Shown here in pieces: positions 6,148-9,953 of a DNA stretch of 64,000 nucleotides (its first letter is position 1; every line of letters starts with the position of its first letter). The stretch is from assembly GCF_006345805.1 (NCBI RefSeq), contig NC_043005.1:35092001-35156000 (forward strand). Reading direction: 5' to 3'. The stretch comes from Octopus sinensis (taxonomy: Eukaryota). Position numbers: made by a program.

Positions 6148-9100
6148 AGAACCTTACAGTAGTCTGGAACAACTGAATCTTAGTCAGTCAGTTGATGGGC
6201 TCTACTACTTCAAATGTTCTTAAAATTTAAATCCACAACTTTGTCTATGTATCTACCCTCTCTATAATGTTGCTACTTGATATGAAAATTTTTGTATTAA
6301 TGGAAAACCTCTATAATTGGCTGATGAGTGCTCAGCATTTTAAAACTGTTGTAATACTTACAACATTTAATAAAATGATGTAGTACGAAACGATTGTACC
6401 AAATTACCGGAGTCATTTTTGTTGCTTATTTTGAGTATATATATATATATTATATATATATATATATCTCAGAACCTTACAGTAGTCTGGAACAACTGAA
6501 TCTTAGTCAGTCAGTTGATGGGCTCTACTACTTCAAATGTTCTTAAAATTTAAATCCACAACTTTGTCTATGTATCTACCCTCTCTATAATGTTGCTACT
6601 TGATATGAAAATTTTTGTATTAATGGAAAACCTCTATAATTGGCTGATGAGTGCTCAGCATTTTAAAACTGTTGTAATACTTACAACATTTAATAAAATG
6701 ATGTAGTACGAAACGATTGTACCAAATTACCGGAGTCATTTTTGTTGCTTATTTTGAGTATATATATATATATATATATATATACCTACACTCACACATG
6801 CACACAAGCACATTAAGAACATATATATAATAAAGTCACATACTGTATTTTTGCAAGTATCACAGGATGGCTGTCATCAACACAGACAGTACGACCTCTC
6901 AGCTCTTCATCTTGTATTGAATATGGCTTAAATGATGGACAGACTGCCGTACAGTTAAACTACATTAAATAGAAAAGAAAATATTTTCTCAATTGCATTT
7001 AAAAAAAATTTTATCTGGTAAAACTACAACAAAAACAAAACTATAAAACATTTGATAGAAAATAGTACAAATGTTGCCTTGTTTTTTTTCTTCTTTAATT
7101 TTAGGTAAAATGATTTTAAAGTTGGATAACATTTCTAGTAAAGCATTTAACAGAAATCCTTATAGTAAAGAAACTGAATAAAATTGAATCACACAAAGGC
7201 GAAATCTATAATTTTCCTTGATATCCTGTTTGAGAAATAATTCTTGTAGATTTAGAAGATGACTCAGTAGATATATTCTTTTTCAAATGTCTGCAACAGC
7301 ATTTCAAATGCTACACCAGGAATCTCCTCTATTAACTTCAGTAAGATCCTAAATTTCATGTTGTCTGTTTCTGTCAATAACATCAATGTACTTGTGAGAT
7401 CTTCATTAGGGCGCAGAAGTCTTCAGGCTTACTCCATGAATTTTATGGGAACTTGCTTTCCGAATAGTAACCACTTTATAGTATGTCCTTTTTTTTTCAT
7501 GTAACCAGCACTAGTGAGGTTGCTGTGCAGCTTGCAAGACTACAAACCTCAAGAGCAGTGGTTTTAAGCTACAAGATCAGGGATTAAAGTATGAGAAAAT
7601 GGTTGAGGGCAGAAACAGGTTACATCTATGTAACTTAGCAGTGGCTTGGGCTGGGAAGTTTTGTTTTGTGTGTTTTGTGTTTTTTTTGTTTGGGGAGGGA
7701 AATCAGGGACTTGTGTCTTCTTAGGTTTATGAGTCACCATTGTAAACCCCATCTCCTTGGTAGTTTGGTTCTTTTCTTCCATTGTTCTCTCATCCTTTCC
7801 TTCTGCTGCACTTTCTGGTCTGTCTGCTGATGTTTCCTTCGCAGCTTTTTTCTTTGTGGTACACTTGGTGCGGACATTTGGGCATTAGACTTGCCCAAAT
7901 ACATCAATTTATTGATGCATTTGGGCAAGTCTATGTATGTATTATCAGACAATTGCCAAAAAAAAAAATGTTTCAATAAATTCAAAACTCTGCAAAAATC
8001 TGGTACAAATTCTTATTGGTTCAAAACATTGCTTACTTTTTACTCAAGCTGATCATCATCATCATCATCATCATCATTTAACGTCCGCTTTCCATGCTAG
8101 CATGGGTTGGACGGTTCAACTGGGGTCTGGGGAGCCCGAAAGCTGCACCAGTCCAGTCAGATCTGGCAGTGTTTCTACAGCTGGATGCCCTTCCTAACGC
8201 CAACCACTCCGAGAGTGTAGTGGGTGATTTTATGTGCCACCGACACAGGTGCCAGACGAGGCTGGCAAACGGCCACGCTCGGATGGTGTTTTTTATGTGC
8301 CACCGACACAGGTGCCAGACGAGGCTGGCAGACGGCCACGCTCGGATGGTGTTTTTATGTGCCACCGACACAGGTGCCAGATGAGGCTGGCAAACGGCCA
8401 CGATCGGATGGTGTTGTTACGTGCCCACAGCACGGAGGCCAGTCGATGCGGTACTGGCTACGGCCACGTTCGGATGGTTTTCTTATGTGCCACGTGCCAC
8501 CGGCACTGGTACCACAAAGATACAAATTCCATTGATGTTCATCTATTTTGATTTGTTTTGATTTTCACTTGCTCAACAGGTCTTCACAAGTGTCACAAGA
8601 AGGAAGGTATGCACAGGTGGACTGACTACGTCCAGGTAGGGGCCACAGGTTATGGCCTGACTAGTTTGCCGGGTTTCGGATGGTGTTTTTATGTGCCACC
8701 GACACAGGTGCCAGATGAGGCTGGCGAACGGCCACGATCGGATGGTGTTTGTTACGTGCCCACAGCACGGAGGCCAGTCGGTGCGGTACTGGCTATGGCC
8801 ACGTTCGGATGGTTTCTTGTGTGCCACCGGCACTGGTACCACAAAGATACATTCCATTAATGTTCATCTATTTTGATTTGATTTGATTTGATTTTTTGTT
8901 TTGATTTCATTTTGATTTTCACTTGCCTCAACAGGCCTTCACAAGTATCACAAGGAGGAAGGTATGCACAGGTGGACTGACTACGTCCCAGGTAGGGGCC
9001 ACGGGTTATGGCCTGACTAGTCTTGCCGGGTCTTCGGATGGTGTTTTTATGTGCCACGGACACAGGTGCTAGATGAGGCCGGCGAACGGCCACGATCGGA

Positions 9101-9906
9101 TGGTGTTTGTTATGTGCCCACAGCACGATGGCCAGTCGATGCGGTACTGACTACGGCCACGTTCGGATGGATTTCTTGTGTGCCACAGGCACTGGTACCA
9201 CAAAGATACAAATTCCATTGATGTTCATCTATTTTGATTTGATTTGATTTTCACTTGCCTCAACAGGTCTTCACAAGTGTCACAAGAAGGAAGGTATGCA
9301 CAGGTGGACTGACTAGTCTTGCCGGGTCTTCGGAAGGTGTTTTTATGTGCCACCGACACAGGTGCCAGATGAGGCTGGCGAACGGCCATGATCGGATGGT
9401 GTTTGTTACGTGCCCACAGCACGGAGGCCGGTCGATGCGGAACTGGCTACGGCCACGTTCGGATGGTTCTCTTGTGTGCCACCGGCACTGGTACCACAAA
9501 GTGTGTGCCACCAGGTACACAAAGTACAGATTCCATTGATGTTCATCTATTTTGATTTGTTTTGATTTGATTTTCACTTGCCTCAACAGGTCTTCACAAG
9601 TGTCACAAGAAGGAAGGTATGCACAGGTGGACTGACTACATCCCAGGTAGGGTCCATGGGTTATGGCCTGACTAGTCTTGCCGGGTCTTCGGATGGTGTT
9701 TTTATGTGCCACCGACACAGGTGCTAAATGAGGCTGGCGAACGGCCACGATCGGATGGTGTTTGTCATGTGCCCACAGCACGGAGGCCAGTCGATGCGGT
9801 ACTGGCTACGGCCACTTTCAGATGGTTTTCTCTTGTGTGCCACTGGCACTGGTACCACAAAGATACAAATTCCATTGATGTTCATCTATTTTGATTTGTT
9901 TTGATT

Positions 9907-9953
<47 letters not shown>

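What the first reader, a model, noticed from the sequence alone, without database searches (positions are those of the whole stretch)
8052..9908. Composite multimeric retroposon with a conserved order of variant units at distant loci
The architecture is [~330-bp unit]n + [~61-bp subrepeat]m + LINE-like hairpin tail + (ATG)n, with no coding capacity. Copies A (here, minus) and B (62264-63977, plus) share diagnostic variants in the same 5'-3' order: a full unit, then a unit with the GGAATCTGTA variant that lacks the kissing-loop module, later a unit with CCTGGAC (one G lost), then the terminal unit. So a ~1.8-kb heterogeneous multimer was copied from a master rather than amplified in place. The subrepeat number varies (3, 5, 5). 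This is much longer and more modular than a typical SINE. I cannot tell whether it is already catalogued.
Basis: partly seen in the sequence, partly recalled or inferred. Interest (0 to 1): 0.72.

Follow-up and report, generated by a model that had tools for sequence, protein, structure and literature searches.

The report
Octopus multi-unit non-coding retroposon family
An octopus genome carries a young, non-coding mobile element built from several ~330-bp tandem units, a variable 62-bp repeat block and a conserved tail ending in (ATG)n, and it was copied to new sites as a whole array, much as primate SVA elements are.

Summary
Three copies share one plan. Copy A (8052-9908, minus) has 5 units, B (62264-63977, plus) has 4 and C (56840-57470, plus) has 1. 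Each then has 62-bp repeats (3, 5, 5 counting the partial last one), an identical ~150-bp tail and (ATG)n.

The second units of A and B alone share five substitutions and a 36-bp deletion, so an array of unlike units was copied as a block. The "kissing-loop" label has no support.

Terminal unit plus tail show 0 of 318 substitutions between A and B, against 31 of 937 in the internal units. CpG o/e is 0.72-0.79 against 0.24 for the rest of the window, so the copies are young.

Four other elements in the window (D-G) carry the same 3' module. No tRNA, ribozyme or protein domain was found.

Best reading: a non-autonomous, LINE-dependent composite retroposon, comparable to SVA and to mouse L1 monomers, lying in introns of an octopod EGFR-like gene. 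All four long copies meet (TA)n at their 5' end, which is unexplained.

No partner LINE was found, and only one of four long copies (C; none for A, B or D) has a target-site duplication. Dfam and Repbase were not available, so catalogue status is unknown.

The parts
8052..9908 (-). Copy A, whole element: 31-nt A-rich leader, 5 units, 62-bp repeats, tail, (ATG)n
9878..9908 (-). A: 5' leader (CAAATCAAAAC...ATAGATGAACAT). It starts at unit phase 16 and directly abuts (TA)n at 9909-9960
9539..9877 (-). Unit A1 (339 bp, type I)
9221..9538 (-). Unit A2 (318 bp, type II, carries the 36-bp deletion with junction near 9306-9318). Positional match of B2
8860..9220 (-). Unit A3 (361 bp, type I, expanded AAATC-like spacer)
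8535..8859 (-). Unit A4 (325 bp, type II, CCT-GGAC). It has no counterpart of its type in B
8366..8534 (-). Terminal unit A5 (169 bp). 0 of 168 substitutions against B4 and against C1
8227..8365 (-). A: 62-bp repeats, 2 full plus 1 partial. The last full repeat has GTTTG instead of GTCTG
8078..8226 (-). A: conserved 3' tail module. It includes the GTTAGGAAGGGCATCCAGC core and the CCATG-CTAG-CATGG hairpin at 8092-8105
8052..8077 (-). A: terminal (ATG)n, 8.7 copies
62264..63977 (+). Copy B, whole element. Units B1 62314-62740 (internal 62-bp triplication), B2 62741-63055 (36-bp deletion), B3 63056-63366, terminal B4 63367-63535. Then 62-bp repeats 63536-63799, tail 63800-63948, (ATG)n 63949-63977
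56840..57470 (+). Copy C, one-unit form. Leader 56840-56864, terminal unit 56865-57033, 62-bp repeats 57034-57295, tail 57296-57444, (ATG)n 57445-57470. Flanked by TAATATACAT on both sides
17004..17750 (-). Element D, a related family. It has its own ~300-bp 5' part, 4 diverged 51-67-bp repeats, the same tail and (ATG)n. Its 5' end (ACAAATCAAAAC) abuts (TA)n at 17753-17784
27520..27690 (-). Element E: old copy of another family sharing only the 3' module and (ATG)n
30886..31060 (-). Element F: old copy of another family sharing only the 3' module and (ATG)n-like end
53062..53242 (+). Element G: old copy of another family sharing only the 3' module and (ATG)n
9909..9960 (.). (TA)n array directly at the 5' junction of A. 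Target or part of the element: undecided

Best explanation
A, B and C are copies of a recently active, non-coding, non-autonomous non-LTR retroposon family of an octopod genome.

Structure. The RNA reads 5' to 3' as follows:
- an A-rich leader;
- one to five ~320-360-bp tandem units. Each unit is itself built from about 2.4 diverged 62-nt modules, ~150 nt of unique sequence and an AAATC-like spacer;
- a variable block of 62-nt repeats;
- a ~150-nt tail that is conserved across several families;
- (AUG)n.

Proposed mechanism (inferred). A partner LINE reverse transcriptase recognises the tail and its simple-repeat end, and copies the RNA from the 3' end by target-primed reverse transcription. 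The 3' end is therefore always complete, and whole arrays of unlike units are inherited from multi-unit source elements. Unit number and 62-mer number then change by slippage or unequal exchange.

Further inference. The tandem, CpG-rich 5' units act as self-carried promoter monomers with a start site in the A-rich spacer, as in mouse L1. Copies beginning at any unit would then begin at the same phase.

Shown: the architecture, the inheritance of unit order, conservation of the 3' part, the youth of the copies, and the sharing of the tail with other families.

Inferred: LINE dependence, promoter function, and a (TA)n target preference.
For: 1. Block inheritance. A2 and B2 alone, among 10 units, share 5 substitutions and a 36-bp deletion. 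Both are the second unit, preceded by a type I unit and followed by a type I unit. In all 3 copies the last full 62-mer carries GTTTG where the upstream ones carry GTCTG, and B and C share TGTCAG there.

2. Independent insertions. A and B lie in opposite orientation. Their upstream flanks are unrelated. No larger duplication surrounds them.

3. Retroposon-type ends. All 7 tail-bearing sequences in the window end in (ATG)n. Length variation is all on the 5' side (5, 4 or 1 units, or tail only). C is flanked by TAATATACAT on both sides.

4. Constraint on the 3' part. There are 0 of 318 substitutions between A and B in terminal unit plus tail, against 31 of 937 in matched internal units (Fisher two-sided p = 1.9e-4).

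5. Shared 3' module. D, E, F and G share only the ~170-240-bp 3' module. In the tail alignment, helix 93-99/117-123 has 4 of 6 pairs with changes on both sides.

6. Youth. CpG o/e is 0.72, 0.76 and 0.79 in A, B and C. It is 0.42 in D, 0.12-0.15 in E-G and 0.24 in the rest of the window.

7. Phased 5' ends. B, A and C start at unit positions 1, 16 and 22 of ~330. The chance of that for three random truncation points is about 0.013. D starts at the homologous ACAAATCAAAAC.

8. Strand asymmetry. The sense strand of A, B and C has 0 runs of T4 or longer, against 24, 21 and 8 runs of A4 or longer.

9. No coding or known RNA function. Pfam found nothing above cut-off. Rfam had 0 hits at gathering threshold for the window, and no tRNA or ribozyme at E<=10 in 7900-10000. 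ARAGORN found 0.

10. Known parallels. SVA and LAVA VNTRs have conserved repeat-unit arrays at their ends (PMC4432496, abstract). Mouse L1 promoters are tandem monomers of variable number (PMC9022269 and PMC6454616, abstracts in the listing). LINE-promoter SINEs and bipartite non-autonomous LINEs are described in PMC4758252 and PMC5786205 (passages).
Against: - No partner LINE with this tail is in the window.
- A convincing target-site duplication was found for only 1 of 4 long copies (C), and that one lies in low-complexity TA-rich DNA. The best flank matches for A and D score at noise level.
- Only two multi-unit copies could be compared.
- B1 and B3 are each other's closest units (97.2%). 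Some within-array exchange therefore blurs positional orthology.
- The tail, a unit and the 62-mer block fold no better than shuffled sequence (z +0.24, +0.49, -0.75).
- The terminal hairpin shows no covariation.
- By the count of pairs with double changes, 104 of 500 shuffles do as well.
- The lack of T4 runs is only marginal (P about 0.047, and A and B are not independent).
- The 5' (TA)n association is not a usual feature of LINE-mediated insertion.
- Many single-base indels in B could be assembly errors.
Confidence: 0.62

Rival explanations
1. Ordinary LINE 3' end. A, B and C are 5'-truncated copies of an autonomous LINE whose long 3' UTR contains the 330-bp and 62-bp tandem repeats. The 'element' is just that UTR.
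For: - The tail with (ATG)n is shared by several families, and copies are truncated from the 5' side, as for LINE 3' ends.
- Octopus vulgaris has many recently active LINE families (Table 1 of PMC13282606, read).
- I could not search any octopod genome or repeat library.
Against: - The 5' ends of A, B and C fall within 22 nt of the same unit phase (P about 0.013).
- Each 5' end meets (TA)n with unrelated DNA beyond it.
- None of the 4 long copies continues into coding sequence.
- The only reverse-transcriptase-related ORF nearby (18218-19585) is separated from D by ~430 bp plus (TA)16, and its 3' region matches nothing upstream of A, B or C.
Confidence: 0.2
2. A Penelope-like-element dependent, retrozyme-like tandem element. 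The units are head-to-tail copies made by the Penelope-type integration machinery, which prefers (TA)n.
For: - Naiad-type Penelope-like elements occur in Octopus, often target (TA)n, lack hammerheads, are 5'-truncated and form partial tandems (PMC8557442, passages).
- Animal retrozymes are tandem non-coding units linked to Penelope-like elements (abstract).
- 4 of 4 long copies meet (TA)n at the 5' end.
- A reverse-transcriptase-related ORF fragment lies just upstream of the (TA)n array that borders D.
Against: - The upstream units lack the element's own 3' end, so they are not partial tandems of the whole element.
- Every copy ends in (ATG)n, like LINE/SINE simple-repeat tails.
- No hammerhead was found in the window at Rfam gathering threshold, nor at E<=10 in 7900-10000.
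- A and D have no (TA)n on the 3' side.
Confidence: 0.08
3. In-place minisatellite growth. A one-unit element such as C inserted at each site and the units multiplied locally. The resemblance of order is due to chance or gene conversion.
For: - B1 carries a local 62-bp triplication (96% matches).
- A3 has an expanded spacer.
- B1 and B3 are 97.2% alike.
- The window holds other near-identical tandem duplications bounded by (TA)n.
Local array change therefore does occur.
Against: - Six shared derived characters, including the same 36-bp deletion, are found only in A2 and B2, 54 kb apart and in opposite orientation.
- The internal-type units are not derivable from the terminal unit present in C. 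They carry ~150 nt that C lacks (the unit-specific part hits only A and B).
Confidence: 0.05

Closest known systems
VNTR composite retrotransposons of hominoids (SVA, LAVA, PVA, FVA)
   Same: - Non-coding, non-autonomous and 1-2 kb or more in length.
- Modular, with an internal tandem-repeat block whose copy number differs between copies.
- The terminal repeat-unit arrays keep a conserved order (PMC4432496, abstract).
- The 3' module is borrowed from or shared with other repeats.
   Different: - Two nested repeat levels here (330 bp and 62 bp), against 30-50-bp units in SVA.
- Ends in (ATG)n, not poly(A).
- No Alu-like or SINE-R parts.
- The host is an octopod, whereas the abstract calls that class specific to hominoid primates.
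- The partner LINE is unknown, and L1-type target-site duplications were not shown.
Mouse L1 (L1Md) 5' UTR monomers
   Same: - Tandem ~200-350-bp, CpG-rich units at the 5' end.
- Unit number varies between copies, and units come in distinct types.
- In mouse, monomer duplication is thought to offset 5' truncation (PMC6454616 and PMC9022269, abstracts seen in the listing).
   Different: - The mouse monomers head a coding LINE, whereas no ORF is present here.
- Promoter activity of the octopod units is untested.
LINE-promoter SINEs and bipartite non-autonomous LINEs (5' plus 3' LINE parts, no ORF)
   Same: - SINE-like, non-coding elements without a tRNA head.
- They end in short tandem repeats and are presumed to be LINE-mobilised. 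They are described in mollusks (PMC4758252, passages; PMC5786205, passages).
   Different: - Those are short, single-unit elements.
- A LINE origin for the 5' units here could not be tested.
SINE/LINE pairs with a shared 3' sequence and simple-repeat tail (UnaL2/UnaSINE1 type)
   Same: - A conserved 3' module with a hairpin just upstream of a short tandem repeat.
- The module is shared by several non-coding families.
- PMC4758252 names UnaL2 as a LINE ending in tandem repeats. That its stem-loop is recognised by the reverse transcriptase is recalled, not seen in a call.
   Different: - No partner LINE was identified.
- No Pol III head was detected.
- The length far exceeds that of SINEs.
Naiad Penelope-like elements and non-LTR retrozymes
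   Same: - Association with (TA)n.
- Tandem non-coding units.
- 5' truncation.
- Presence in Octopus (PMC8557442; preprint abstract).
   Different: - No hammerhead.
- The units do not contain the element's 3' end.
- The terminus is (ATG)n.
V-SINE superfamily (V highly conserved domain)
   Same: - From memory only, the tail core (GTTAGGAAGGGCATCC...GTA.AAA) resembles the V domain of fish V-SINEs.
- A 52-column, 84.6%-identical match to a eukaryote-like contig (L002) shows that the core occurs outside octopods.
   Different: - No V-domain reference sequence was available, so this is a lead and not a test.
- V-SINEs are short and have tRNA heads.

Membership tests
SINE (SINEBase definition, PMC3531059) | Short, under 1 kb (known families 75-662 nt without tail) | tested here: not met
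   A is 1857 bp and B 1714 bp. Only C (631 bp) fits (definition seen).
SINE (SINEBase definition, PMC3531059) | Head derived from a Pol III RNA (tRNA, 7SL, 5S) | tested here: not met
   ARAGORN found 0 in the window. Rfam found 0 at gathering threshold and no tRNA, 7SL or 5S at E<=10 in 7900-10000. Very diverged heads could escape detection.
SINE (SINEBase definition, PMC3531059) | At least 100 interspersed copies per genome | not testable with these tools
   No octopod genome collection was available. There are 3 copies of the family and 7 tails in 64 kb.
SINE (SINEBase definition, PMC3531059) | 3' tail of simple repeats | tested here: met
   (ATG)n of 8.7-9.7 copies in A, B and C. All 7 tails end in ATG-type repeats.
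Non-LTR (target-primed) retroposon | Target-site duplications flanking each copy | tested here: inconclusive
   1 of 4 long copies (C) has a 10-bp direct repeat, and it lies in TA-rich DNA. A, B and D have none above noise. B has only 23 nt of 3' flank in the window.
Non-LTR (target-primed) retroposon | Constant 3' end, variable 5' end | tested here: met
   All 7 copies keep the tail and (ATG)n. The 5' extent ranges from tail only to 5 units.
Non-LTR (target-primed) retroposon | Autonomous partner sharing the 3' tail | not testable with these tools
   No such element is in the window. No eukaryotic genome or repeat library was on hand.
VNTR composite retrotransposon (SVA type) | Non-coding composite with an internal VNTR of variable copy number and ordered terminal repeat arrays | tested here: met
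   There are 2, 4 and 4 full 62-mers with a conserved last variant. Unit numbers are 5, 4 and 1 with a shared I - II(del36) - I order.
VNTR composite retrotransposon (SVA type) | L1 hallmarks (poly(A) end) and a hominoid host | tested here: not met
   The end is (ATG)n. The host exon is 92% identical to Octopus vulgaris EGFR-like protein. This is an analogue, not a member.
Non-LTR retrozyme / Penelope-like non-autonomous element | Hammerhead ribozyme in each tandem unit | tested here: not met
   No Rfam hit at gathering threshold in the window and no ribozyme at E<=10 in 7900-10000.
Microsatellite-targeting LINE dependants (restriction-like endonuclease clades such as R4/Dong) | Target microsatellite on both sides of the insertion | tested here: inconclusive
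   (TA)n or TA-rich DNA lies at the 5' junction of 4 of 4 long copies but at the 3' junction of only 2 of 4 (B and C). The clades' target specificity is from PMC4640811 (passages).
V-SINE superfamily | ~120-bp V highly conserved domain | not testable with these tools
   The domain length is from PMC6887750. That text prints no sequence, and PMC155270 is not held. The resemblance is recalled only.

The most novel reading that the evidence does not exclude
This would be the first VNTR-composite retroposon class described outside hominoid primates. In this reading it is a recently active octopod element whose tandem CpG-rich 330-bp units are portable promoter monomers, each with a start site in its A-rich spacer. 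It is copied as ordered multi-unit arrays by a LINE that reads the conserved tail and (AUG)n. It integrates at the borders of (TA)n microsatellites, seeding CpG-island-like blocks in the introns of neural and developmental genes such as the EGFR-like host gene.
Probability: 0.22. Interest if true: 0.6.

Novelty: new variant of a known kind. Interest (0 to 1): 0.4.

Why it matters
Octopus genomes are about two-thirds repeats. The latest curated annotation of O. vulgaris counts 893 of its 900 recently active SINE families as 'Unclassified SINE' (PMC13282606, Table 1).

A young family that copies ordered arrays of unlike units would show three things:
- SVA-like composite retroposons and mouse-L1-like monomer arrays arose independently in a mollusk.
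- Tandem repeats can evolve under the constraint of retroposition, and this family would be a tractable case for studying how.
- 0.6-1.9-kb CpG-rich blocks are dropped into otherwise CpG-depleted introns (o/e 0.72-0.79 against 0.24), with possible effects on host gene regulation.

If the family is instead a catalogued LINE 3' UTR, the finding is ordinary repeat annotation.

Tried and rejected
- tRNA or other small-RNA head: ARAGORN and Rfam found nothing.
- Hammerhead or retrozyme: nothing.
- Coding capacity: the frames in A, B and the 5' part of D have no Pfam family above cut-off.
- Unusually stable RNA folds: tail z +0.24, unit z +0.49, 62-mer block z -0.75. The 'kissing-loop' reading was dropped.
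- B3 as an A3/A4 chimera, which would have rescued the CCTGGAC marker: rejected. B3 disagrees with A4 at alignment columns 354 and 479 as well.
- Long target-site duplication at C: the ~120-bp flank similarity comes from a TA-rich minisatellite that repeats in the flank.
- (TA)n as an internal part of a longer parent element: the sequences upstream of the four arrays are unrelated.
- Segmental duplication of A and B: none.
- Pol III-friendly lack of T runs: only marginal.
- Printed-sequence search of the literature for three tail motifs: 0 papers.
- Literature searches for octopus SINEs, Ceph-SINEs, octopus TEs and invertebrate VNTR composites found no description of such an element. Subscription papers such as Ohshima and Okada 1994, and all supplements, were not visible.
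- Scan of bacterial and archaeal genome contigs for a 19-nt tail core: 2 hits, against about 4 expected by chance by my own arithmetic. L001 lies in a 943-kb Planctomycetales contig and looks like a chance match. L002 extends to 44 of 52 identical columns and looks like eukaryotic repeat DNA, with a weak, sub-threshold Exo_endo_phos match downstream (E 0.015).
- Not checked: Dfam, Repbase and SINEBase; any octopod genome or transcriptome; the metagenome contigs and viral contigs collections (closed); paper supplements (closed), including the O. vulgaris repeat tables, which may already list this family.
- The exons of the host EGFR-like gene were searched one at a time.

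
Full report
**What is there**

The window is AT-rich (GC 0.30-0.40 in most 2-kb bins) with many microsatellites. Two 2-kb bins stand out at GC 0.49 and 0.48, and they hold copies A and B.

Tandem Repeats Finder and a BLAST of A against the window show three copies of one family:
- A: 8052-9908, minus strand.
- B: 62264-63977, plus strand.
- C: 56840-57470, plus strand.

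The same searches also show a 75%-identical relative, D (17004-17750, minus), and three short pieces that match only the last 65-160 nt: E 27520-27690 (minus), F 30886-31060 (minus) and G 53062-53242 (plus). The window has no N.

**Anatomy**

I cut at the conserved CAATGGAAT anchor.

| Copy | Leader | Units | Full 62-mers | Tail | (ATG)n copies |
|---|---|---|---|---|---|
| A | 31 nt, A-rich | A1-A4 (339, 318, 361, 325 bp) + terminal A5 (169 bp) | 2 (+1 partial) | 149 nt | 8.7 |
| B | present | B1-B3 (427, 315, 311 bp) + terminal B4 | 4 (+1 partial) | same | 9.7 |
| C | present | terminal unit only | 4 (+1 partial) | same | 8.7 |

Each internal unit is itself composed of about 2.4 diverged 62-nt modules, ~150 nt of unit-specific sequence and an AAATC-like spacer. 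The unit-specific part occurs only in A and B.

D has its own ~300-nt 5' part and four diverged 51-67-nt modules, followed by the same tail.

**Is the order of unlike units shared?**

Yes, for the main marker. In the 10-unit alignment, A2 and B2 alone share:
- C at column 10 (GGAATC);
- G at column 180;
- T at column 208 (GTTCC);
- A at column 260 (GATCATGG);
- T at column 317;
- a 36-bp deletion between two TAGTCAG repeats.

Units fall into two types. Type I is A1, A3, B1 and B3. Type II is A2, A4, A5, B2, B4 and C1. They are separated by columns 240 and 283, among others. This gives:
- A = I, II(del36), I, II, terminal.
- B = I, II(del36), I, terminal.

The terminal units share a 6-7-bp insertion and TTTGCC. 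In all three copies the last full 62-mer has GTTTG where the upstream ones have GTCTG.

But these are units of different type, B3 disagrees with A4 at columns 354 and 479 as well, and the change is a homopolymer loss. I treat it as homoplasy or an assembly error.

B1 and B3 are the closest pair of internal units (97.2%), so some exchange within arrays has occurred.

**Independent insertions, young, with a constrained 3' part**

- A and B are in opposite orientation and 54 kb apart. They start 15 nt apart in unit phase. Their upstream DNA is unrelated, and they are not part of a larger duplication.
- In matched internal units, A and B differ by 11 of 333, 5 of 294 and 15 of 310 substitutions, with 33 gap events. 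In the terminal unit and tail they differ by 0 of 168 and 0 of 150. The contrast of 31 of 937 against 0 of 318 gives Fisher p = 1.9e-4.
- Uniform decay after insertion would not produce this contrast. Either the copies come from different source elements in which only the 3' part is kept by selection, or the arrays turn over faster than unique sequence.
- CpG o/e is 0.72, 0.76 and 0.79 in A, B and C. It is 0.42 in D, 0.12-0.15 in E-G and 0.24 in the remaining 58.5 kb. A, B and C are therefore recent arrivals in CpG-depleted DNA.

**The tail**

The seven tails align over 198 columns with 79% mean column identity. D, E, F and G share nothing with each other, or with A, beyond this 3' module, apart from the 62-bp modules that D also shares with A. 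The tail is therefore a module common to several families, as with LINE-derived SINE tails.

RNAalifold predicts 33 pairs, 5 of them with changes on both sides. On a 24-pair version of that structure:
- 90.7% of cells pair.
- The covariation score is 0.282 against 0.224 for shuffles (3 of 500 reach it).
- The count of pairs with double changes is not unusual (104 of 500 shuffles reach it).
- The signal sits in one helix (columns 93-99 with 117-123, 4 of 6 pairs) and comes from E and G only.
- The terminal CCATG-CTAG-CATGG hairpin (8092-8105 in A) is kept in 5 of 7 tails but shows no covariation.

Overall folding energies of the tail, a unit and the 62-mer block are not better than shuffles. 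A 'LINE-like hairpin tail' is therefore plausible but only weakly supported. The 'kissing-loop module' is not supported.

**What it is not**

- No tRNA or tmRNA.
- No Rfam family at gathering threshold in the window, and no tRNA, 7SL, 5S or ribozyme at E<=10 in 7900-10000.
- The longest frames in A (181 aa) and B (164 aa) have no Pfam family above cut-off. Unit lengths are not consistently multiples of three.

**The 5' ends and (TA)n**

B, A and C begin at positions 1, 16 and 22 of the ~330-nt unit, in the A-rich spacer. Three random truncation points would do so with P of about 0.013. D begins at the homologous ACAAATCAAAAC.

All four long copies meet (TA)n or TA-rich DNA at the 5' junction. 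In the first 56 kb, perfect (TA) runs of six or more repeats cover only 848 of 56,000 bases, yet both A and D abut such an array.

On the 3' side, only B and C have TA-rich DNA. Only C has a plausible target-site duplication (TAATATACAT); A, B and D have none above noise.

I could not decide between three readings:
- a target preference for (TA)n borders;
- second-strand cleavage at (TA)n with loss of target DNA;
- a (TA)n stretch that belongs to the element.

Two literature points may be relevant. Restriction-like-endonuclease LINE clades often target microsatellites (PMC4640811), and Dong-R4 has the most recently active LINE insertions in O. vulgaris (PMC13282606). Naiad Penelope-like elements, which are present in Octopus, often target (TA)n (PMC8557442).

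**Host and setting**

Single-exon frames on the minus strand match:
- a tyrosine-kinase domain (445-870);
- growth-factor-receptor domain IV (the start of 18218-19585);
- a receptor L domain (49612-50301).

The last of these is 92% identical to Octopus vulgaris EGFR-like protein. All copies therefore sit in introns of an octopod EGFR-like gene. A and D lie in the sense orientation, B and C in the antisense.

**Interpretation**

The best-supported reading is a non-autonomous, LINE-dependent composite retroposon whose multi-unit arrays are inherited from multi-unit sources. It has a selected 3' recognition module and repeat numbers that drift.

The phased 5' ends, the CpG-rich tandem units and the strand asymmetry (0 runs of T4 or longer against 24, 21 and 8 runs of A4 or longer) suggest that the units act as promoter monomers, as in mouse L1 (abstracts). 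This step is inferred only.

The closest known kinds are:
- the hominoid VNTR composites, whose terminal repeat-unit arrays also keep a fixed order (PMC4432496);
- mollusk LINE-promoter SINEs and bipartite non-autonomous LINEs.

It fails the SINE definition on length and head, and the retrozyme definition on the ribozyme.

The main rival is an ordinary LINE 3' UTR, which I cannot exclude without the genome.

**Outside the window**

A scan of bacterial and archaeal contigs for a 19-nt tail core gave two hits. One lies in a large Planctomycetales contig and looks like chance. The other is a 1.5-kb contig in a MAG that looks like eukaryotic repeat DNA. It matches the tail core at 44 of 52 columns, upstream of a frame with a weak endonuclease-like match (E 0.015, below cut-off). 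This suggests that the core is a widely conserved repeat domain. My recollection that it resembles the V domain of V-SINEs could not be tested.

**Verdict**

This is a real, well-defined and recently active repeat family with an unusual nested-tandem architecture and inherited unit order. It is a new variant of a known kind of element, not a new kind. Whether it is already catalogued remains unknown.

Noticed in passing
window 18218-19585 (-): One open frame joins a growth-factor-receptor domain IV exon (first ~70 aa, Pfam E 2.3e-9) to ~350 aa that match proteins carrying a reverse-transcriptase domain (E 2.1e-19). A retroelement fragment therefore lies directly after the exon. About 430 bp downstream of its stop lies the same (TA)16 array (17753-17784) that borders element D. 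From memory its C-terminal motif resembles a Penelope-type GIY-YIG domain. Pfam did not confirm that.
   Followed up: partly
window 445-870, 19370-19585, 49612-50301 (all -): Exons of an EGFR-like receptor tyrosine kinase (kinase, domain IV, receptor L domain). The L-domain exon is 92% identical to Octopus vulgaris EGFR-like protein, so the window lies within very long introns of an octopod gene.
   Followed up: partly
window 50105-52066; 53699-55190; 6112-6784: Three near-identical tandem duplications: about 990 bp x2 at 99.7%, about 730 bp x2 at 99.5%, and 323 bp x2.1 at 99%. The latter two have (TA)n at the repeat borders. They may be recent (TA)n-mediated duplications or assembly artefacts.
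   Followed up: no
whole window: CpG o/e is 0.24 outside the elements, a strong depletion. The young copies A-C keep 0.72-0.79 and so form CpG-island-like blocks in the introns.
   Followed up: yes
L002 1121-1169 (contig of a Metamycoplasmataceae MAG): A 1.5-kb contig filed under a bacterial MAG looks like eukaryotic repeat DNA. It has the conserved tail core (44 of 52 columns identical to A) about 150-200 nt upstream of a frame with a weak endonuclease-like match, and a (GAA)n-ended coding-like piece at its start. It is probably host contamination of the bin.
   Followed up: partly
window 56500-62263: The 5.7 kb between and around C and B is unusually rich in long imperfect (TA)n arrays, for example 57472-57811, 58253-58673 and 60053-60555. 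Perfect (TA) runs of six or more repeats cover 930 of the last 8,000 bases, against 848 of the first 56,000.
   Followed up: partly
window 42694-43277 and 53290-53340: Other repeats were not examined: a 228-bp tandem repeat (2.6 copies, 77% matches), and the start of a tRNA-like SINE-looking sequence right after element G. The latter resembles the abundant octopus CORE-type SINE from memory only.
   Followed up: no
window 34468-35311: A very long compound microsatellite, (ATAC)n/(CA)n/(AT)n, about 850 bp. It produces many spurious open frames.
   Followed up: no
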